This document shows, piece after piece, positions 1-5,992 of a DNA stretch of 64,000 bases. Source of the DNA: Campylobacterales bacterium. Its GTDB lineage: Bacteria; Campylobacterota; Campylobacteria; Campylobacterales; Arcobacteraceae. A model generated the notes under the pieces. That model was not told where the DNA came from, did not search any database, and was given only the letters and a program-made list of their open reading frames with translations. A program made the position numbers and the translations under genes. The DNA is taken from contig JBBRXF010000001.1 of NCBI GenBank assembly GCA_038248665.1, forward strand, positions 91,083 through 155,082, read 5' to 3'. How positions within the stretch are numbered: the first letter of the stretch is position 1; each line of letters starts with the position of its first letter.

Positions 1-39
1 TTGGAATCAAATAAAACAACAAGTTTTATCTTAAAATGA
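1..39 (+). CDS. 3' end of an upstream ORF cut by the window edge (probable antitoxin partner of the next gene)
   Basis: Frame 1 is open from base 1 (...LESNKTTSFILK*). Its TGA (37-39) overlaps the ATG of the next gene (36-38) as ATGA, a coupling typical of type II TA pairs. Only 12 codons are visible, so no family can be assigned. Confidence 0.3.
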   Translation: MESNKTTSFILK

Positions 40-332
40 AACCCTTATCTTTTCACCCTGAAATTGCGATAGATATTAAAGGCTCATATAATTGGTATGA
101 AAAGCAACTTGAAGGATTAGGAAAAGAGTTTTTATATGAATTAGAAAATGGTTTTGAAGCTATTCAAAACTTTCCAAATGCATGGGCTAATTATCAATAT
201 GATTTTAAAAGATATGTCCTAAATAAATTCCCTTTTTCCATAATATACAAAGAAACTAACGAAGAAATATTTATAATTGTAGTTATGCATAACAGTAGAA
301 AACCAAATTATTGGGCTGATAGAATAATTTAA
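36..332 (+). CDS. RelE/ParE-family type II toxin (plasmid-stabilisation-like)
   Basis: 98 aa. The N-terminus (ISF.PEA..DI...Y.WY) and the C-terminal IFIIVVMHNSRKPNYW match the ParE/RelE pattern (I..I..ilH..r.p..w). ATGA overlap with the upstream ORF. Confidence 0.7.
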   Translation: MKPLSFHPEIAIDIKGSYNWYEKQLEGLGKEFLYELENGFEAIQNFPNAWANYQYDFKRYVLNKFPFSIIYKETNEEIFIIVVMHNSRKPNYWADRII

Positions 333-353: not shown

Positions 354-422
354 CTAGTTTAAATAAAACTCTTTTGCATCTTCAATTTCTAAGAATGCAA
401 GTTGAGATATTTTTAAAGTCAT
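354..422 (-). pseudogene. 5' fragment (22 codons) of a second ParE/RelE-like toxin gene
   Basis: Minus-strand ATG at 422-420 reads MTLKISQLAFLEIEDAKEFYLN then TAG (356-354). This resembles the N-terminus of ParE-like toxins, including the one at 36-332. The ATG overlaps the preceding TAA by 1 nt (TAATG). The remaining ~75 codons are missing. Confidence 0.4.
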
Positions 423-591
423 TAATTGAATACTTCTTCAAAAGATAAAGTTTTTAGATTTCCATTTTTATACTCATCTAATCTTTTTTGAGATTCTTCA
501 ATCCAAATTTTTTCAATATCTTTATCTGGTTCATTTAAACTTAAAATTAAATTCTCAATTATTAAATATTTTTCTTTGATAGGGTATTCAT
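422..591 (-). pseudogene. Addiction-module antitoxin-like ORF (Unstab_antitox-type) with a disrupted 5' end
   Basis: The stop-to-stop frame reads EYPIKEKYLIIENLILSLNEPDKDIEKIWIEESQKRLDEYKNGNLKTLSFEEVFN*, matching the pattern L..Ek..Li..L..SL......e..W..E...Rl.ey..G......eEv. There is no ATG/GTG/TTG in this frame. An ATG at 591-589 (MNTLSKKNI*) sits in another frame directly after the helicase stop, which fits a 1-nt frameshift within the first ~6 codons. Confidence 0.45.
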
Positions 592-2394
592 TTAATTATT
601 AGACCATGATAGACCAAATTCATTATATTTTGGCACTCTATTGAAAACTATTATATTTTCTCTTGTTCTAGTTAGTGCAATATACATAAGATAATCAATA
701 TTTGGATAGTCTTCCCTATCTGGTGTGACTAATATTATATTTTGAAGTTCCCATCCTTTAAAACTATGTATAGTACTCATTTTAAGTCTGCTATCTCCCA
801 TCCAAAAAGAATATTTGTTTTTTTTATCACCTCTTTCTTGTTCAAAAACATCATTTACTTTTATACTTTTATCTTCAAAATATTTCTTTACTTGTAAACC
901 ATCTTTATGGGTTGGAAGTAAAATAACTATATCAGATGGACTAATATTTTGTTTTCTTGTTAACCATTCAAAAGCTTTTAATAATTTTTCTAAAGGTAGA
1001 GTAGAATCTATATTCCTCCATACAAAGTGTGGTTCAAATAATCCACTTTGAATTGGTTCAGGGATTAATCCAACATCAGGTAAAAATTTTTCTGCAAATT
1101 TATTTGCTTGTTTTAATATAATAAAAGGCAATCTATAACTTTGTTTTAATTCTCTCCATCTACCTCTAAATTTTGTTCCTTGCATATTTTCTAACCATGA
1201 TAATTCTCTTGAATATATATTTTGTTTTTCATCTGCAACCAAAAATATTTCATCATTTTCAGTTAAAAACATACACAACATCTCATAATATTTTTTTGAA
1301 TAATCCTGTCCTTCATCAATCAATATTGCATCATAATATCTTTCTTTCTTGTTTCTCTTATTTCTCATTGATTCCATAATTAATTCAGGGATTTTATTAT
1401 CAAGATAATCACTTGATTCAATATTCTCTGAATCTGGAAATGTTATATCATTTTCGTATAAATAGTTTCTACAAAAACCATGAAAATGATTAAATTCAAA
1501 TTGTTCCCAATTAAAATCATATCTAGCTCTAGAAATATTATCTCTAATATGATGCCATAGAGTAATATTATATGTTACAACTAAAATCTTTTTTCCTATA
1601 GAAGCTAAATTAGCTGCTCTTTGTGCTATAACTAAAGTTTTACCACTTCCAGCAGCTCCTCTTAATCTTTGATGTTGTTTTTCAGATGGAATTATATGCC
1701 TTTTTTGTTCATCAGATAACACTATTGGTTGTCCTTGTTCAATCGAATGTAAAGGTGGTTTTAACCAAAATCTTATTTCATTAGCCCAATAATTGTTCAT
1801 TGTATAACTTCTAGTAACATTTATATCAGGACAAATCTCATTAAGATAATTTTCATTTAATTTATCATTCCCAAATATTAAGCAATATTTTTCTTTAAAA
1901 TTTGGAATAAATTCTTGTGCTTTAGCAGTTGATGATTTATGAAAGTAAATTCCAATTTTCAATGAAGCTAATCTTTTCTGATTTTCATCAATTAAAGTTG
2001 CTAATTGAGGTAAATATAGCAAAAGATTTTTTCTATATCTTTCAATTTGGTTTATTGGATTAGGAATTTTTTGCCAATCTCTTTGAGATACTAACACAGA
2101 AGATTGATAATAAATGATATTTTTATTTTGTTTTTTATCAAAAAATTTCTTTTCTTCACTTTTATAAATATCTAAATTCCAGTCTTTTATTTCATAAATA
2201 ACTAACCCAACATTGGGATTTAATAAAACAATATCTGGTCTGTCTCCATTAAAATAAGGTTGCAAATAGATTTCCCATTCTATAGGTAAATGAGTATCAA
2301 AAAATTTTGCTAATGTGTATTCTCCATCAGTTAATTGTGTTTTTAATTTATTAATTTCTTCCCAATTAGGGAATATTCTATTTTTAACTATCAT
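592..2394 (-). CDS. PD-(D/E)xK (NERD-like) nuclease fused to a UvrD/Rep-type SF1 helicase
   Basis: 600 aa. The N-terminal GDRPDIVLL...GLVIYEIKDW gives a PD...ExK nuclease motif. Helicase motifs are Walker A GAAGSGKT, motif II ILIDEGQDY, and C-terminal TIHSFKGWE and YIALTRTRENI (SF1 motifs V/VI). Confidence 0.8.
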   Translation of the reverse strand: MIVKNRIFPNWEEINKLKTQLTDGEYTLAKFFDTHLPIEWEIYLQPYFNGDRPDIVLLNPNVGLVIYEIKDWNLDIYKSEEKKFFDKKQNKNIIYYQSSVLVSQRDWQKIPNPINQIERYRKNLLLYLPQLATLIDENQKRLASLKIGIYFHKSSTAKAQEFIPNFKEKYCLIFGNDKLNENYLNEICPDINVTRSYTMNNYWANEIRFWLKPPLHSIEQGQPIVLSDEQKRHIIPSEKQHQRLRGAAGSGKTLVIAQRAANLASIGKKILVVTYNITLWHHIRDNISRARYDFNWEQFEFNHFHGFCRNYLYENDITFPDSENIESSDYLDNKIPELIMESMRNKRNKKERYYDAILIDEGQDYSKKYYEMLCMFLTENDEIFLVADEKQNIYSRELSWLENMQGTKFRGRWRELKQSYRLPFIILKQANKFAEKFLPDVGLIPEPIQSGLFEPHFVWRNIDSTLPLEKLLKAFEWLTRKQNISPSDIVILLPTHKDGLQVKKYFEDKSIKVNDVFEQERGDKKNKYSFWMGDSRLKMSTIHSFKGWELQNIILVTPDREDYPNIDYLMYIALTRTRENIIVFNRVPKYNEFGLSWSNN

Positions 2395-2579
2395 TATTTG
2401 TTAACTTCTTTTTTTACTTATTTAGTAATCATAATATTTATAATTATACTATTAAAATGACTCTCAAGTGATGCAATTTTTATTTATTTAGTTTTATATC
2501 TATTCTCAAGCCAAAAAAACTATGAAATAAAAGATTCATATTCTAATATTTCCCAAATTCTTTTCCCCAACCCTCACTT

Positions 2580-2596
2580 CGGAACACTATTTGCAT
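2580..2596 (+). promoter_or_regulatory. Sigma-54 (-24/-12)-like promoter upstream of nifV
   Basis: cGGAACactatTTGCAt has GG (2581-2582) and GC (2593-2594) at the canonical spacing of TGGCAC-N5-TTGCA, about 33 nt upstream of the nifV ATG. No TGT-N10-ACA NifA-type UAS was seen in 2395-2580. Confidence 0.4.
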
Positions 2597-2628
2597 AAAT
2601 ATTTATATCGAAATTAAAGGTTAGTATA

Positions 2629-3741
2629 ATGCCAATTATTAATGATACAACTTTAAGAGATGGTGAACAAACGCCATACGTAGCTTTTAACACTAAAGAA
2701 AAACTTCAAATAGCAAGGCTTTTATATGAAGCTGGTGCAGATGAGCTTGAAGTGGGAATTCCTGCAATGGGAAAAAAAGAGCAAGATGATTTAAAAGAGA
2801 TTCTTGCCCTTAATTTACCTATTCCAATAATGAGCTGGAATAGAGCTACGATGAGTGATTTAGAAGCATCATTAAAGTGTGGATTAAAAGCAGTTGACTT
2901 ATCTATACCTGTTTCAGATATTTTGATTGACATTAAATTTGGTGGAGATAAAACAAGATTACTAAAACAACTTGAAGAGGTAATTTTACAAGCCAAAAAA
3001 GAAAATTTATTTGTTTGTATCGGTGGAGAAGATTCAAGTCGCGCGAACAACTCTTTTTTAAAAGAGATTATGACATTGGGGAAAGAACTTGGTGCAAATA
3101 GATTTAGATATTGTGATACGGTTGGCATTTTAACACCTCATAAAACTTATGAAAATATCAAAGATTTAAGTTCTTCAAATCTTTTAGATATAGAAATGCA
3201 CACTCACAATGATTTTGGAATGGCAACGGCAAATGCGATTGCTGGTTATGAAGCTGGTGCTATGAGTGCTAACACTACAGTTATTGGTATTGGTGAGAGA
3301 GCTGGAAATGCTAGTTTTGAACAAGTATTAATGTCTTTGAGACTGTTAGGAAAAGATGTTCATATAAATTCAAAAGTATTAAAAGCTCTTATCAAAACTG
3401 TAAGTAGCGCTTCACACAGAAGAATAGATACAAATTTACCAATTATTGGTAAAAACATATTTTCACATGAGTCTGGTATTCATGTAAATGGTATGATGAA
3501 ATCAAATCAGGCTTATGAGCCTTTTACTCCAGATGAAGTTGGTTTAAAACGAACTTTTCCAATTGGAAAACACTCAGGTAGCTCAACATTGGTTTATCAT
3601 TTGAAAGCTGTTGGAATTAATCCAAATCTAGAAATTGTGCAAAAACTTCTTCCAAAGGTACGAGAAATCGTTACGAATAGAAAAAAAGTTTTAAGTGCAA
3701 ACGAATTAAAAGAGTTATACCTATGTTCATTGGATATCTAA
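2629..3741 (+). CDS. nifV: Homocitrate synthase (NifV-type)
   Basis: 370 aa. The N-terminal IINDTTLRDGEQ...ELEVGIPAMG and the HTHNDFGMATAN motif mark the HMGL-like/homocitrate synthase family. The size fits NifV rather than LeuA. It sits in an operon with nifQ. Confidence 0.75.
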   Translation: MPIINDTTLRDGEQTPYVAFNTKEKLQIARLLYEAGADELEVGIPAMGKKEQDDLKEILALNLPIPIMSWNRATMSDLEASLKCGLKAVDLSIPVSDILIDIKFGGDKTRLLKQLEEVILQAKKENLFVCIGGEDSSRANNSFLKEIMTLGKELGANRFRYCDTVGILTPHKTYENIKDLSSSNLLDIEMHTHNDFGMATANAIAGYEAGAMSANTTVIGIGERAGNASFEQVLMSLRLLGKDVHINSKVLKALIKTVSSASHRRIDTNLPIIGKNIFSHESGIHVNGMMKSNQAYEPFTPDEVGLKRTFPIGKHSGSSTLVYHLKAVGINPNLEIVQKLLPKVREIVTNRKKVLSANELKELYLCSLDI

Positions 3742-4529
3742 AAAACGGTTTTGAAGATTGCTTAGAGGATTTAACAAATAAAAATCCTTTATTTGATTTA
3801 GAACTATTAAAACAAACATACAATGCTTATCCTCAACACTGTTATGCTGCTTATGAAGAGTCAAAAATAGTTGGTATTTTAAGCGCTTACTCTTTTGAAA
3901 AATATTTGTACATAAATGTATTAGAAGTAATTGCTGAATATGAAGATGTTTTAAAAAGGTTGATTTCTTTGTTAATAAGAAATTTCCCAGAAGAAAATAT
4001 TTTAATTTTAATAGATAAAAACAAAAGCCAAGAATTAGAGAGTTTAGGATTCAAAACATATAGTGATTTTTTAAGATTTATGCATTCAGGTGAAGCTGTT
4101 GCTTTTAATTTCTCAAATTCTACTGCAAAACAAGTTAGTGGTGAACATTATGATGAAGTTGCAAGAAGAGTAGATAGAAAAGTATTTAATTTATGTAGAG
4201 AAGATTACATTAAATCAGATTGTATATTTACAAACTCTTTGAAACTTTCAACAGGATATGGATATTTACACTCTTATGTTGTAAATAAAAGATTTATAAA
4301 AATATCTCCTTGGATTATGGATAATGAGGCTTTTTTAGATGCAGAGAAGCTTTTACGAGGGGTTTTATATTATAGGGGTTTAAAAAAGATTTATGGTTAT
4401 GCTCCAAAAAATATAAAAGAGATAGTGGACTTATATCAAAGTTATAAGTTTGAAATCAATGGGGATTTCAAACTTATGTATTTGAGGGATAAACCAAACA
4501 TCATACTAGATAATTTATACGCAATTTAA
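3723..4529 (+). CDS. Hypothetical protein, possibly GNAT-like acetyltransferase fold
   Basis: 268-aa ORF overlapping the nifV 3' end by 19 nt, so probably translationally coupled. I recognise no clear catalytic motif. The acetyltransferase idea is only a weak pattern impression, by analogy to the acetyltransferase gene that follows nifV in other diazotrophs. Confidence 0.4.
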   Translation: MFIGYLKNGFEDCLEDLTNKNPLFDLELLKQTYNAYPQHCYAAYEESKIVGILSAYSFEKYLYINVLEVIAEYEDVLKRLISLLIRNFPEENILILIDKNKSQELESLGFKTYSDFLRFMHSGEAVAFNFSNSTAKQVSGEHYDEVARRVDRKVFNLCREDYIKSDCIFTNSLKLSTGYGYLHSYVVNKRFIKISPWIMDNEAFLDAEKLLRGVLYYRGLKKIYGYAPKNIKEIVDLYQSYKFEINGDFKLMYLRDKPNIILDNLYAI

Positions 4530-4538
4530 GGAGTAATT

Positions 4539-4745
4539 ATGGAATTAACACATGAGCAAAAAGAGTTAAAAAAAGAGTTGGCTAAATATAAAAGAAAAGT
4601 TGTAGAGTTAGCAGGTGAAGTTCATGACATCGTTGAAGATACTATCTGGACAGATTATGTAAGATTACCACAATTAAGCGAAGATATTAAAAATGCAATG
4701 AATATAGTTAATGAGTTTCAAGAACAACATCCATACCTAAAGTAG
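4539..4745 (+). CDS. Small nif-cluster protein, DUF683/CCE_0567-like
   Basis: 68 aa and predicted helical. The EVHDIVED...W segment resembles the conserved (D/E)LHDLAEE motif of nif-associated DUF683 proteins (from memory). GGAG RBS 9 nt upstream. Confidence 0.45.
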   Translation: MELTHEQKELKKELAKYKRKVVELAGEVHDIVEDTIWTDYVRLPQLSEDIKNAMNIVNEFQEQHPYLK

Positions 4746-4751
4746 TTATAA

Positions 4752-5000
4752 ATGGAAAATCTAAAAGAGAAACAAATTTGCGAATGTGGAGAGATGAGTA
4801 TTATTCAAGCCCAAAAAATATTTGAAGATACTGATTTGCCATATAAAAAAGCAAAAAAACTTGTTACTGGCTGTAGTAAAACTTGTTGTAGAAGACCTCT
4901 CATGGCTCTATTTAACATGGTAGAGTTCGGTGAAGTTGACTATGAAGAAATCGCATTTTTAATCGATGCGAAAAACGATAGATTAAAGGATGACGAATGA
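4752..5000 (+). CDS. BFD-like [2Fe-2S]-binding protein
   Basis: 82 aa with CxC (ICEC) near the N-terminus and GCSKTCC about 30 residues later. This is the Cys spacing of Bfd-like [2Fe-2S] domains. Confidence 0.6.
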   Translation: MENLKEKQICECGEMSIIQAQKIFEDTDLPYKKAKKLVTGCSKTCCRRPLMALFNMVEFGEVDYEEIAFLIDAKNDRLKDDE

Positions 5001-5992
5001 GTTACGATATCGAACATTTTGTAAAATGGATAAGAGCTAACGATTTAACACCTATAATGTCAGTTGTGGAAGATGATTTAGAATTATTAACACACCTAGA
5101 TTTATCAAAAAGAAATTTAAAAGATTTACCTGAATCAATTGGAGTTTTAAGAAATTTAAGTGTTTTAAAACTATCAAATAACAAACTTAGAAAATTACCA
5201 AAAGCAATAGGTGAACTAAAAAATCTAAGAAATCTTCAATGTGAAAATAATTTAATAGAAGAGTTACCAACAGAAATAGGAAATCTAGCAAATCTTATGA
5301 TATTAAATCTTAATGTAAATAGATTAAAAGCACTACCAAAAGGTTTTTATGATTTAAAATCGCTAACTAGACTTACCCTTGCTGCAAATAGAATTGAGAG
5401 TTTAGATGAAGATTTTAAAAAGTTATCAAAACTTTTGTATCTTTCATTAGAGACAAATGAGTTAGAAGATATTCCTGATATTTTTGAGAATATGCAACAG
5501 TTATATTATTTAGATTTATCATTTAATCATTTAACTTTTTTACCATCCTCTTTATCAAAAATAAAAGAGTTAGAGACACTTATTTTAGAGGGAAATAGTT
5601 TAAAAGAGTTACCATCTTTAGAATCTCACGATATGCTTTTAAAACTCGATTTAAGTGGGAATGCTTTGAAATCATTAGATTTTGATGTTAGTAAACTAGA
5701 AGATTTAAAAATATTGATTTTGGATAATAATTTATTAACAAAACTGCCAAAAGAGATTTGTGAATTAAAAAAATTAACTACTCTTTCAGTGAGTGGAAAT
5801 AAATTAGAATCTCTACCAGAATTAATTGGTAATTTAACAAATCTTCAAGAGTTGGATGTTGAAGATAATAAGTTAGAATCACTACCAAGTTCTATAAATA
5901 ATTTAGAGAGTCTGAAAAGTCTTTTTATTGATAATAATAAAGGCTTAACAAAACCACAGTCGCTTGAACTTGATTTTTGCGACGTAAAATAG
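4997..5992 (+). CDS. Leucine-rich repeat protein (about 12-13 canonical 23-residue LRRs), cytoplasmic
   Basis: 331 aa. Repeated LxxLxLxxNxLxxLPxxIGxLxxL units run through almost the whole protein. No signal peptide. ATGA start/stop overlap with the Bfd-like gene. Confidence 0.9.
   Translation: MSYDIEHFVKWIRANDLTPIMSVVEDDLELLTHLDLSKRNLKDLPESIGVLRNLSVLKLSNNKLRKLPKAIGELKNLRNLQCENNLIEELPTEIGNLANLMILNLNVNRLKALPKGFYDLKSLTRLTLAANRIESLDEDFKKLSKLLYLSLETNELEDIPDIFENMQQLYYLDLSFNHLTFLPSSLSKIKELETLILEGNSLKELPSLESHDMLLKLDLSGNALKSLDFDVSKLEDLKILILDNNLLTKLPKEICELKKLTTLSVSGNKLESLPELIGNLTNLQELDVEDNKLESLPSSINNLESLKSLFIDNNKGLTKPQSLELDFCDVK

What the first reader, a model, noticed from the sequence alone, without database searches (positions are those of the whole stretch)
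592..2394. Nuclease-helicase fusion (PD-(D/E)xK plus UvrD-type SF1) as a candidate single-gene defence module
The 600-aa protein joins an N-terminal restriction-endonuclease-like motif (RPDIVLL...YEIKDW) to a complete SF1 helicase core (GAAGSGKT, DEGQD, TIHSFKGWE, ALTRTR). It sits between toxin-antitoxin genes and an unrelated nif operon. It is among the most AT-rich coding stretches of the window. It is followed in the same orientation by a decayed TA cassette whose ATG abuts its stop codon (TAAATG). NERD/PD-(D/E)xK-helicase fusions are the architecture of the Nhi nuclease-helicase immunity protein and of several uncharacterised defence-island genes (recalled from memory, not searched). At 600 aa this version is compact and may be a distinct clade.
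Basis: partly seen in the sequence, partly recalled or inferred. Interest (0 to 1): 0.7.

Follow-up and report, generated by a model that had tools for sequence, protein, structure and literature searches.

The report
Stand-alone NERD nuclease–UvrD helicase gene
The gene is real and intact; it encodes a nuclease joined to a DNA helicase and belongs to a large, already catalogued but untested family that hops between genomes as a single gene and usually sits among anti-phage genes, and it is not a member of the Nhi family.

Summary
The 600-aa ORF (592..2394, minus strand) and every quoted motif are present. It is an N-terminal NERD-type PD-(D/E)xK nuclease (D54, E68-x-K70, Q116xxxY120), a conserved connector, and a complete UvrD-type SF1 helicase.

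It matches PADLOC model PDLC01087, "C3a187 NERD+UvrD", end to end (E 3.5e-92). That family was named in 2018 as a candidate type III CRISPR accessory and has no reported experimental test.

The family is large: 1,326 representatives at 50% identity with E≤1e-30, mostly ~600 aa. It is scattered over bacteria and archaea, sits on at least 39 plasmids and is essentially absent from phages.

It has no conserved partner gene. DNA similarity to 94% and 90% identical copies stops within 25 nt of the ORF ends.

Neighbours are often defence genes (Hachiman, a BREX-type helicase, retrons, Gabija, type I R-M, type III CRISPR, WYL regulators) or toxin-antitoxin pairs.

It is not Nhi:
- BLASTP against Nhi gives E=13.
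- It does not reach the Nhi HMM.
- The nuclease domains do not align.
- Only helicase domain 1A is remotely related.
- Nhi is itself 606 aa, so "compact distinct clade" fails.

Verdict: an ordinary member of a known candidate family. A stand-alone anti-mobile-element nuclease-helicase is likely but unproven.

The parts
592..2394 (-). Intact gene for the 600-aa NERD-UvrD nuclease-helicase (stop codon 592-594)
   Evidence: ORF. PADLOC PDLC01087 C3a187 at E 3.5e-92 covering residues 14-597. AF2 model pLDDT 89.2, pTM 0.89.
2011..2328 (-). NERD (PD-(D/E)xK) nuclease domain, residues 23-128
   Evidence: Pfam PF08378 at E 8.7e-8, 33.1 bits against a cut-off of 22.1. N-terminal model pLDDT 91.3. Weak Foldseek hits are mostly PD-(D/E)xK nucleases.
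2185..2235 (-). Catalytic core D54 ... E68-I-K70 (RPDIVLL...YEIKDW)
   Evidence: D54, E68, K70 and D71 are invariant among the 30 closer homologues and at least 90% conserved across 35.
2035..2049 (-). Q116-x-x-x-Y120 motif (RecB/Cas4-type nuclease motif by form)
   Evidence: Q116 and Y120 are invariant. Assignment of the motif type rests on general knowledge.
1732..2010 (-). Conserved connector, residues 129-221, ending in WLxPPxHxxEQG; function unknown
   Evidence: Invariant Y150, H152, G175, W210, P213, P214, H216, E219. Its end aligns with FLxSPFNxTE of the Nhi family in hhalign.
595..1731 (-). UvrD-type SF1 helicase core, residues 222-600 (Q-motif L226..Q230 through motif VI)
   Evidence: Pfam UvrD-helicase, AAA_19, UvrD_C. 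Foldseek hits to UvrD, PcrA and Rep with TM 0.42-0.48 and E 1e-12 to 1e-15, and to SLFN11 at 2e-16.
1636..1659 (-). Walker A / motif I, GAAGSGKT (246-253)
   Evidence: G246, G249, S250, G251 and K252 are invariant.
1303..1317 (-). Motif II, DEGQD (360-364)
   Evidence: D360, E361, Q363 and D364 are invariant.
748..774 (-). Motif V, TIHSFKGWE (541-549)
   Evidence: T541, S544, F545, K546, G547, W548 and E549 are invariant.
661..678 (-). Motif VI, ALTRTR (573-578)
   Evidence: R576 is invariant; A573 and T575 are at least 90% conserved.
2395..2628 (.). Divergent intergenic region shared with nifV; presumed promoter region of the gene
   Evidence: Position only. The promoter-like scan found no more sites than shuffled sequence. 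Similarity to homologues ends 5-25 nt upstream of the ATG.
422..595 (-). Neighbour, not part of the module: Unstab_antitox antitoxin pseudogene (coding 425-595, no start codon, stop 422-424)
   Evidence: Pfam PF09720 at E 3e-12, profile positions 3-54 of 54. Sequence read.
354..422 (-). Neighbour: 22-aa stub with the position and look of a RelE/ParE-type toxin start; its ATG overlaps the antitoxin stop (TAATG)
   Evidence: No Pfam hit, as it is too short.
36..332 (+). Neighbour: ParE-like toxin ORF, convergent; any antitoxin partner would lie off the window
   Evidence: Pfam ParE_toxin at E 3.1e-4, 21.7 bits, just below the cut-off of 23.

Best explanation
The gene encodes a typical member of the NERD-UvrD nuclease-helicase family (PADLOC PDLC01087, "C3a187").

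Proposed working (inferred):
- It is a self-sufficient, horizontally mobile, single-gene enzyme directed against invading DNA such as phage or plasmid.
- The UvrD-type SF1 motor binds and hydrolyses ATP. It loads on a DNA end or ssDNA-dsDNA junction and translocates or unwinds.
- It feeds the strand to the N-terminal metal-dependent PD-(D/E)xK (NERD) nuclease, which cuts it. This makes it a one-polypeptide AddA/RecB-like or Nhi-like DNA shredder with the domain order reversed.
- Discrimination of foreign from self DNA most likely rests on DNA structures typical of invaders (free ends, replication intermediates) or on a phage trigger. If discrimination fails, the outcome would be abortive self-damage.

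Shown here: gene integrity, domain identity, conservation of catalytic residues, family membership, lack of a conserved partner, ORF-bounded mobility, and frequent defence and TA neighbours.

Inferred: the substrate, the helicase polarity, nuclease-helicase coupling, and the defence phenotype itself.
For: **Identity**
- Pfam finds NERD, UvrD-helicase, AAA_19 and UvrD_C.
- PADLOC C3a187 matches at E 3.5e-92 end to end. The N-terminal 222 aa alone still hit only that model.
- D54, E68-x-K70, QxxxY and all SF1 motifs are conserved.
- AF2 models are confident. The helicase core superposes on UvrD, PcrA, Rep and SLFN11.

**Autonomy and mobility**
- Of 514 neighbour clusters across 81 non-redundant loci (the window included), 490 are unique to one locus.
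- Similarity to the 94% and 90% nt-identical copies is confined to the ORF plus 1-25 nt, and the three contexts are unrelated.
- At least 397 species-representative genomes, scattered over bacterial and archaeal phyla, carry relatives.
- There are 39 full-length copies on plasmids and none among 50,697 phage records.

**Defence context**
- HamB lies directly upstream of the 70% homologue. The other partners confirmed in the same scan are a BrxHI-like helicase, a retron-type RT, an NsnB/AriA-like ATPase, an HKD+Snf2 protein, a WYL regulator and PDC-M72A.
- 140 immediate neighbours hit 243 PADLOC models at E≤1e-10, against 138 models for 140 distal genes.
- A Deinococcus plasmid copy sits beside csm genes and a CRISPR array.
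- An Acinetobacter plasmid copy lies between hsdS and hsdR and is followed by a GajA-like ATPase and a helicase.
- An archaeal copy sits beside a DUF499/DUF1156/SNF2 system and a HEPN-MNT pair.
- TA pairs lie beside six further copies.

**Literature**
- NERD domains are enriched in defence islands (PMC9226505).
- Nuclease-helicase single proteins can defend, with Nhi as the example (bioRxiv 10.1101/776245).
Against: - No member of this family has a reported phenotype in the papers I could search.
- The window copy itself has only TA remnants and a nifV cluster beside it. No recognised defence system was seen in the roughly 18 kb to its right that I annotated, and the other side runs off the window.
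- The neighbourhood comparison has no true genomic background. The "far" control set is itself defence-rich.
- PADLOC model counts are not counts of proteins or of loci.
- The N-terminal model has no significant structural match (best E 0.06), so the nuclease fold rests on the Pfam hit and the motifs.
- A distant sub-branch has lost the catalytic residues, so nuclease activity is not universal in the wider family.
- No sensor domain is visible.
Confidence: 0.6

Rival explanations
1. It is a member of the Nhi (nuclease-helicase immunity) family and works exactly like SERP2475, degrading phage replication intermediates.
For: - The overall architecture and size are the same: an N-terminal PD-(D/E)xK-type nuclease and an SF1 helicase, 600 aa here against 606 aa for Nhi.
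- hhalign finds remote homology over the connector and helicase domain 1A (probability 95.7%, E 9e-9, 141 columns).
- The PADLOC AbiO model, which also matches Nhi, touches the Walker A region at E 2.9e-7.
Against: - BLASTP against SERP2475 gives E=13.
- The Nhi HMM PDLC02372 scores Nhi at 1.3e-157 but is not among this protein's top 25 hits, so its E-value is above 6.5e-4.
- Nhi's Pfam profile is DUF2075/SLFN-g3 with no NERD and no UvrD hit.
- This protein scores 19.9 bits on PF09848, below the cut-off of 24.
- The nuclease-domain profiles do not align (probability 0.6%).
- The Nhi helicase is described as Dda/Upf1/Dna2-like SF1B, whereas this one has UvrD-type motifs III-VI.
Confidence: 0.03
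2. It is an accessory effector of a type III CRISPR-Cas system (the original C3a187 proposal), supplying processive helicase-nuclease degradation downstream of Cas10 complexes.
For: - The family was defined from three genes flanking type III-A/B modules (PMC6546367).
- A Deinococcus plasmid copy lies next to csm2/3/5 with a CRISPR array just upstream.
- Cas10, Csx1 and CARF-HEPN occur among distal genes of about two loci.
Against: - No CRISPR array was found anywhere in the 64-kb window, and no cas gene lies among the ~18 kb of neighbouring genes annotated.
- Only about 4 of the ~90 loci scanned have a CRISPR-like array within 10 kb.
- There is no CARF, SAVED or other cyclic-oligoadenylate sensor domain.
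- No cas gene is a conserved neighbour.
Confidence: 0.05
3. It is a housekeeping or accessory DNA repair and recombination enzyme (an AddA/RecB-, Dna2- or helicase IV-like nuclease-helicase) with no role in conflict with mobile elements.
For: - The nearest structural relatives of the motor are repair helicases: UvrD, PcrA, Rep, RecB and Dna2.
- Some copies sit among housekeeping genes (L001, L087, L092).
Against: - The distribution is extremely patchy across domains of life.
- There is no synteny.
- Transfer is bounded by the ORF.
- Copies are carried on plasmids.
- Defence and TA neighbours recur.
- No NCBIfam repair equivalog is approached; the best is 42 bits against a cut-off of 965.
Confidence: 0.12
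4. It serves the mobile element that carries it, for example by excluding competing plasmids or ICEs or by processing DNA during transfer, rather than defending the host.
For: - Copies lie in an integrase- and Mu-transposase-bounded element (L002-L005).
- A copy lies in the accessory region of a conjugative Sphingobium plasmid, beside ParB-N, a zincin-like peptidase, strawberry-notch and integrases.
- 134 of 188 plasmid hits are on mobilizable or conjugative plasmids.
Against: - Many copies are chromosomal with no mobile-element genes nearby.
- It is not linked to any one transfer machinery.
- This reading overlaps heavily with defence, since elements commonly carry defence cargo, and these data cannot separate the two.
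Confidence: 0.15

Closest known systems
C3a187 "NERD+UvrD" (cluster 187 of Shah et al. 2018, RNA Biol, PMC6546367; PADLOC PDLC01087; representative Dole_0738)
   Same: End-to-end HMM match at E 3.5e-92. The two domains, their order and the length are the same.
   Different: The original definition was adjacency to type III CRISPR-Cas, based on three genes. The window copy and most relatives have no CRISPR nearby. No function has been shown for the family.
Nhi (SERP2475, S. epidermidis; Bari et al. 2022; bioRxiv 10.1101/776245)
   Same: A single ~600-aa polypeptide with an N-terminal D...ExK nuclease, a connector and an SF1 helicase. It is horizontally spread and often sits near defence genes. 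There is remote homology in the connector and helicase 1A.
   Different: No pairwise similarity. The HMM family differs. Nhi has a DUF2075, SF1B-like helicase against a UvrD-type one here. The nuclease domains do not align. Nhi has a C-terminal glyoxalase-like domain.
Nhi-like (Millman et al. 2022; bioRxiv 10.1101/2022.05.11.491447)
   Same: A nuclease plus SF1 helicase single protein. A review lists Pfam NERD for it (PMC10952713).
   Different: It is defined by DUF2075, which this protein does not reach (19.9 bits against 24).
NERD-helicase partner of UG34 reverse transcriptases (cluster 485, Mestre et al. 2022, PMC9226505; PADLOC PDLC03813 RTasNERD-Hel)
   Same: NERD N-terminus plus a C-terminal helicase. 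There is a weak full-length HMM match at E 9e-10 covering residues 53-586. Retron-type RTs are neighbours in three loci.
   Different: There is no RT next to the window gene. The match is far weaker than the match to C3a187.
GajB of Gabija, and AddA/RecB
   Same: A UvrD-type SF1 motor used together with a nuclease against DNA. PADLOC GajB models match at E down to 1.7e-16 over the helicase part.
   Different: GajB has no nuclease of its own and needs GajA. AddA and RecB carry the nuclease at the C-terminus and work in multi-subunit complexes (general knowledge). Here the nuclease is N-terminal and no partner is conserved.

Membership tests
NERD-UvrD / C3a187 (PADLOC PDLC01087) | Full-length match to the family HMM | tested here: met
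   E 3.5e-92, residues 14-597 against model positions 8-553 of 559. The N-terminal 222 aa alone score E 5e-21 and hit only this model.
NERD-UvrD / C3a187 (PADLOC PDLC01087) | NERD domain followed by a UvrD-type helicase in one polypeptide of ~600 aa | tested here: met
   Pfam NERD 33.1 bits (cut-off 22.1) and UvrD-helicase 63.8 bits (cut-off 23). Family lengths are mostly 590-650 aa.
NERD-UvrD / C3a187 (PADLOC PDLC01087) | Encoded adjacent to a type III CRISPR-Cas module (the original criterion) | tested here: not met
   No CRISPR array in the window. The neighbours are TA remnants and a nifV cluster. This is a context criterion, not a sequence one.
Nhi | Sequence or HMM similarity to SERP2475 (PADLOC PDLC02372) | tested here: not met
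   BLASTP E=13. Nhi scores 1.3e-157 on its own model, and that model is absent from this protein's 25 best hits.
Nhi | DUF2075 / PF09848 helicase of SF1B type (Dda/Upf1/Dna2-like) | tested here: not met
   PF09848 scores 19.9 bits against a cut-off of 24, while UvrD-helicase scores 63.8 bits. Motifs III-VI are UvrD-like. Foldseek hits both UvrD (TM 0.48) and SLFN11 (TM 0.42). Helicase polarity was not measured.
Nhi | N-terminal PD-(D/E)xK nuclease homologous to that of Nhi | tested here: not met
   A D...ExK...QxxxY pattern is present in both, but the N-terminal profiles give hhalign probability 0.6%. Nhi has no Pfam NERD hit.
Nhi | Protects against phage by blocking phage DNA accumulation | not testable with these tools
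   Needs an experiment.
Nhi-like (Millman 2022) | N-terminal nuclease plus DUF2075 | tested here: inconclusive
   A nuclease is present, but DUF2075 is below the cut-off.
PD-(D/E)xK nuclease superfamily | Conserved acidic residues and lysine (D ... D/E-x-K) | tested here: met
   D54, E68 and K70 are invariant in the closer 30 sequences and at least 90% conserved in 35.
PD-(D/E)xK nuclease superfamily | Restriction-endonuclease-like alpha/beta fold | tested here: inconclusive
   The model is confident (pLDDT 91.3), but no PDB match reaches E≤0.001. The best weak hits are PD-(D/E)xK proteins: SfsA 0.06, NucS 0.09, EndoMS, BspD6I, Can2 (TM 0.39), XisH and YaeQ.
SF1 UvrD/Rep-type helicase | Q-motif and motifs I, Ia, II, III, IV, V, VI intact | tested here: met
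   L226..Q230; G246-T253; T274-N-I-T278; D360-E-G-Q-D364; D388..Q391-N-I-Y394; Y420-R421; T541-E549; Y571..R576. Structural matches to UvrD, PcrA and Rep.
Gabija (GajB) | Adjacent GajA (ATPase plus TOPRIM) partner | tested here: not met
   Neighbouring genes are TA remnants, nifV, a GNAT-like gene, a Rop-like gene and an LRR gene.
UG34 RT-associated NERD-helicase (PDLC03813) | Adjacent UG/Abi reverse transcriptase | tested here: not met
   No RT beside the gene. The HMM match is only E 9e-10.

The most novel reading that the evidence does not exclude
The NERD-UvrD family (at least 1,300 clusters at 50% identity, in both bacteria and archaea) is a widespread, experimentally unrecognised stand-alone anti-phage or anti-plasmid system. 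On this reading it is mechanistically parallel to Nhi but evolutionarily distinct from it, apart from remote homology confined to the connector and helicase 1A region. It would spread as an ORF-sized cassette by a recombination route that leaves breakpoints within a few nucleotides of the start and stop codons. Its conserved connector (residues 129-221) would act as the sensor or coupling element.
Probability: 0.4. Interest if true: 0.55.

Novelty: new member of a known kind. Interest (0 to 1): 0.32.

Why it matters
If the family really defends, it would add a common, compact, single-gene nuclease-helicase system to the known immune repertoire. That system occurs in both bacteria and archaea. 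It would also show that the "nuclease + SF1 helicase in one chain" solution exists in at least two separate families, here with a UvrD-type motor and in Nhi with a DUF2075-type motor.

For annotation, it shows that the PADLOC label "C3a187, cas accessory" describes a family that is mostly not linked to CRISPR.

For this window, the result is modest. The gene is an ordinary, well-conserved member of that family, parked next to dead TA genes and a nifV cluster.

Tried and rejected
- **Nhi membership:** rejected by BLASTP, the HMM positive control, Pfam and two profile-profile comparisons.
- **Operon or translational coupling with the downstream TA cassette through TAAATG:** rejected. The ATG opens a 9-codon ORF, the antitoxin frame is different and has no start codon, and the same string follows the stop codon in L001, which has no TA remnant at that position.
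- **A conserved partner gene or two-gene system:** rejected by clustering of 575 neighbours.
- **Obligate type III CRISPR accessory:** rejected for this copy and for most relatives.
- **Phage origin:** rejected. There is no full-length hit in 50,697 phage records.
- **Strong compositional anomaly:** rejected. The gene ranks 13 of 58 for GC.
- **Promoter and terminator scan:** uninformative in this AT-rich DNA, with fewer promoter-like sites than in shuffles.
- **Whole-chain Foldseek:** said nothing about the nuclease domain because the helicase dominates. The separate N-terminal model gave only weak matches.
- **Hachiman HamA beside the 70% homologue:** the 245-aa gene upstream of HamB in L086 hit no PADLOC or Pfam model, so the Hachiman call there rests on HamB alone.
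- **Primary Nhi paper by PubMed id:** not held. The bioRxiv version was used instead.
- **Near-versus-far PADLOC comparison:** gives model counts only, not per-locus counts, and it lacks a genome-wide background.
Full report

Yes in its core. A single 600-codon ORF lies at 592..2394 on the minus strand.

Pfam gives NERD (residues 23-128, 33.1 bits against a cut-off of 22.1), UvrD-helicase (63.8 against 23), AAA_19 (41.5 against 25.1) and UvrD_C (26.7 against 25.6).

In an alignment of 35 homologues at 41-87% identity, the nuclease residues D54, E68, K70, Q116 and Y120 are invariant or nearly so. So are all the SF1 motifs, from the Q-motif L226..Q230 through motif VI. The gene is full length relative to its family and shows no sign of decay.

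**2. Peripheral details are only partly right.**

- The downstream TA cassette is real and dead. A 57-codon reading frame at 425..595 matches Unstab_antitox (E 3e-12, profile positions 3-54 of 54) but has no ATG, GTG or TTG start. Its stop overlaps, as TAATG, the ATG of a 22-codon stub that sits where a RelE/ParE-type toxin gene would begin.
- The stub ends just short of a convergent ParE-like ORF at 36..332, which itself scores just below Pfam's cut-off.
- The ATG in "TAAATG" opens only nine codons, in another frame.
- The string TAAATGrATA also follows the stop codon of the 94%-identical homologue in L001, where no TA remnant is present. It is therefore the tail of the helicase cassette and not a TA start.
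- Gene GC is 0.258, rank 13 of 58 genes and about one standard deviation below the mean. It is not an outlier.
- To the right lie a genuine nifV (TIGR02660, 475 bits against a cut-off of 463), a GNAT-like gene, a Rop-like gene, a small Cys-rich ORF and an LRR protein. After those come rluA-like, purB and nrdA/nrdB. This is a short nifV cluster, not nifHDK.

**3. What family is it?**

The PADLOC library gives one outstanding hit: PDLC01087 "C3a187, NERD+UvrD" at E 3.5e-92, covering residues 14-597. The N-terminal 222 residues alone hit only that model.

C3a187 is cluster 187 of Shah et al. 2018 (PMC6546367). It comprised three genes, with Dole_0738 as representative, found next to type III-A/B CRISPR modules. 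It was proposed, without experiment, to supply helicase-nuclease processivity.

The family is far larger than that:
- The word-indexed search returned 872 hits, the best 120 nearly all ~600 aa with the same Pfam set.
- The exhaustive profile search of 1.84 billion representatives found 1,326 proteins at E≤1e-30 and 7,770 at E≤1e-10. Most are 590-650 aa, and a few carry N- or C-terminal extensions of 200-300 aa.
- A scan of one genome per species found at least 397 carriers. They are spread over Campylobacterota, Bacteroidota, Ignavibacteriota, Cyanobacteria, Chloroflexota, Firmicutes, Myxococcota, Pseudomonadota and several archaeal lineages.
- Full-length copies occur on 39 plasmids from very different hosts. 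None occurs in 50,697 phage records.

So "about 600 aa" is the family norm, not a compact sub-clade.

**4. Structure.**

The full-length AlphaFold2 model is confident (pLDDT 89.2, pTM 0.89). Its PDB matches are SF1 helicases:
- SLFN11 at E 2e-16.
- UvrD, PcrA and Rep at E 1e-12 to 1e-15, with the best TM-scores (0.42-0.48).
- Upf1, Ighmbp2, RecB/RecD and Dna2 after those.

Motifs III (VADEKQNIY), IV (SYRLP), V (TIHSFKGWEL) and VI (YIALTRTR) are of the UvrD/Rep form. Naming them this way rests on general knowledge of SF1 motifs.

The N-terminal 225 residues, modelled alone, are also confident (pLDDT 91.3) but have no PDB neighbour at E≤0.001. The weak top matches are dominated by PD-(D/E)xK proteins: SfsA, NucS/EndoMS, BspD6I, Can2, XisH and YaeQ. 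The nuclease assignment therefore rests on the Pfam NERD hit and the conserved D/ExK/QxxxY residues. The fold search is consistent with it but not decisive.

Between the two domains lies a conserved connector (residues 129-221, with invariant Y150, H152, G175, W210, P213, P214, H216 and E219). It has no assigned function.

**5. Is it autonomous, and is it mobile?**

I called genes around 80 genome loci, the closer homologues L001-L005 and the window itself. One locus yielded no focal gene, and L003-L005 duplicate L002, which leaves 81 non-redundant loci. Clustering the 575 neighbours within ±4 genes gave 514 clusters, of which 490 occur at a single locus. The most recurrent cluster is seen at 5 loci. 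There is no conserved partner and no synteny.

The closest copies show this directly:
- The 94% homologue (L001) sits between ABC-transporter and ferrochelatase genes and an RHH/PemK pair.
- The 87% homologue (L002-L005) sits in an integrase- and Mu-transposase-bounded element. A WYL regulator lies 22 nt upstream, followed by an ankyrin/HisKin-conflict gene, ParE and an iREC gene.
- The 70% homologue (L086) follows a HamB helicase.

At the DNA level, similarity between the window and L001 (94.4%) runs from 5 nt before the ATG to 7 nt after the stop. For L002 (89.8%) it runs from 25 nt before to 1 nt after. The ORF alone is what moves.

**6. Neighbourhood content.**

Recurrent or adjacent neighbours scanned against PADLOC are bona fide defence components:
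- HamB (3.7e-58).
- A BrxHI-like helicase (1.6e-154).
- A retron-type RT (3.7e-109).
- An NsnB/AriA-like ATPase.
- An HKD+Snf2 protein (C3a139/DrmD-like).
- A WYL regulator.
- PDC-M72A.

In a bulk test, 140 immediate neighbours (±2 genes, 69 loci) hit 243 PADLOC models at E≤1e-10. The hits include SspB, DpdF, PDC-S22/S23/S72 and type II methyltransferases. By comparison, 140 distal genes (at least 7 genes away, 65 loci) hit 138 models, including Cas10, Csx1, CARF-HEPN, a type I REase, ZorD and DpdE/F. This shows that many loci are extended defence islands. It is not a controlled enrichment statistic, because it counts models rather than loci, the control set is itself defence-rich, and there is no genome-wide background.

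Annotated examples agree:
- A Deinococcus plasmid copy lies next to csm2/3/5 with a CRISPR array just upstream.
- An Acinetobacter plasmid copy sits between hsdS and hsdR and is followed by a GajA-like ATPase-TOPRIM protein and a helicase.
- A Halobacteriota copy sits beside an SLFN_AlbA_2 protein, a DUF499/DUF1156/SNF2 system and a HEPN-MNT pair.
- TA pairs lie beside the window copy and six others: L001, L002, L072, L091, L093 and L094.

Only about four loci have a CRISPR-like array within 10 kb, so the CRISPR link that gave the family its name is the exception.

The window copy itself is flanked only by TA remnants on one side, where the window ends after 590 nt. On the other side are metabolic and housekeeping genes.

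**7. Relationship to Nhi.**

I retrieved SERP2475 (WP_002489608) from the supplement of the Nhi preprint. Its gene is 1,821 nt, which gives 606 aa.
- BLASTP against the window protein finds nothing (E=13).
- As a positive control, Nhi hits PADLOC model PDLC02372 "Nhi" at 1.3e-157 and "AbiO" at 6.5e-140. The window protein hits AbiO only at 2.9e-7, over the Walker A stretch, and the Nhi model is not among its 25 best hits.
- Pfam sees DUF2075/SLFN-g3_helicase, AAA_30 and Viral_helicase1 in Nhi, with no NERD and no UvrD. The window protein scores 19.9 bits on PF09848, below the cut-off of 24.
- The authors describe the Nhi helicase as Dda/Upf1/Dna2-like SF1B with a C-terminal glyoxalase-like domain.
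- A profile-profile comparison of the two families finds a real but remote relationship (95.7% probability, E 9e-9). It is confined to the connector end and helicase domain 1A, window residues 210-399, where WLxPPxHxxE aligns with Nhi's FLxSPFNxTE.
- Profiles of the nuclease domains alone do not align (probability 0.6%).

The two families therefore share an architecture and perhaps a distant motor ancestor, but this protein is not an Nhi.

Nhi-like (Millman et al. 2022) is defined as a nuclease plus DUF2075. I could not obtain its sequence, so that comparison remains open.

**8. How it most likely works.**

Shown: an intact nuclease active site, an intact ATP-driven SF1 motor, one polypeptide, no obligatory partner, horizontal spread, and a frequent home in defence islands and mobile elements.

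Inferred, by analogy with AddA/RecB, Dna2 and Nhi: the motor loads on DNA ends or ssDNA-dsDNA junctions, unwinds or translocates, and hands the strand to the NERD nuclease. The result would be destruction of invading or replicating foreign DNA, with the possibility of self-damage (abortive infection) if uncontrolled.

How self is spared is unknown, and no sensor domain is visible. WYL regulators upstream of some copies suggest transcriptional control in those cases.

I give the defence reading about 0.6. Rivals are a selfish role for the carrier element (0.15, hard to separate from defence), a repair or recombination role (0.12), a CRISPR type III accessory role (0.05) and true Nhi membership (0.03).

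**9. Novelty and verdict.**

The gene is a new member of a known, catalogued, uncharacterised kind. The Nhi kinship, the "compact distinct clade" idea and the TA coupling do not.

Interest is modest (0.32). A specialist would not be surprised by the gene. However, the family's size, its independence from CRISPR, its ORF-tight mobility and the absence of any experimental test make it a reasonable candidate for a defence screen.

Noticed in passing
window 585-2401 versus L001:9996-11810 and L002:9974-11804: DNA similarity to the 94% and 90% nt-identical copies ends 5-25 nt upstream of the ATG and 1-7 nt after the stop codon, and the three flanking contexts are unrelated. The gene appears to move as an ORF-sized cassette. 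No boundary repeats were searched for.
   Followed up: partly
window 354-595 (-) and 36-332 (+): A small TA graveyard. There is an Unstab_antitox frame without a start codon, then a 22-codon toxin-like stub whose ATG overlaps the antitoxin stop. The stub ends just short of a convergent ParE-like ORF whose own partner would lie off the window.
   Followed up: yes
L001, L002, L072, L091, L093, L094 (±4 kb of the homologue): Toxin-antitoxin pairs (RHH/PemK, ParE, PemK-like, PIN, HigB, Phd/YoeB, HEPN-MNT) recur beside family members in otherwise unrelated contexts.
   Followed up: partly
alignment A1: P0088, P0095, P0100, P0108, P0110: A distant sub-branch (41-44% identity, including Caldilineaceae genomes) has lost the D and/or ExK nuclease residues and the Pfam NERD hit, yet keeps all helicase motifs. 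This may be an inactivated nuclease domain reused for binding.
   Followed up: no
window 1732-2010 (-), residues 129-221: The connector between nuclease and helicase is as conserved as the catalytic motifs (invariant Y150, H152, G175, W210, P213, P214, H216, E219). Its end aligns with a similar motif in the Nhi family (FLxSPFNxTE). It has no known function and no structural match.
   Followed up: partly
PADLOC models PDLC02372 (Nhi) and PDLC02350 (AbiO): S. epidermidis Nhi matches the AbiO model almost as well as the Nhi model (6.5e-140 against 1.3e-157). The two named systems therefore appear to be the same protein family.
   Followed up: no
L092:6058-7914, upstream of P0064: A second UvrD-type gene of 618 aa lies directly upstream of the family member, in the same orientation. 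It could be a tandem paralogue or a two-helicase variant.
   Followed up: no
proteins P0122, P0133, P0152, P0178 (N-terminal) and P0140, P0159, P0199 (C-terminal): Some family members carry extra regions of 200-300 aa at one end. These could be sensor or regulatory domains.
   Followed up: no
L002:1986-21803 (Aliarcobacter MAG) and L004: The 87% homologue sits in an integrase- and Mu-transposase-bounded element packed with conflict-system genes: a DNA methylase, a tubulin-like gene, a WYL-WCX regulator, an ankyrin + HisKin-conflict gene (PDC-M72A), ParE, an iREC + response-regulator gene, and SSB.
   Followed up: partly
window 2629-5992 (+): nifV (above the TIGR02660 cut-off) is followed by a GNAT-like gene that overlaps it by 19 nt, a Rop-like PF05082 gene, an 82-aa Cys-rich ORF and a 331-aa leucine-rich-repeat protein. 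An LRR gene is an unusual companion for a nif gene.
   Followed up: partly
L086:6953-9969: The 70% homologue follows a HamB helicase (E 3.7e-58). That helicase is preceded by a 245-aa gene with no PADLOC or Pfam hit, in the position where Hachiman HamA would be. A DUF1853 gene follows the homologue.
   Followed up: partly
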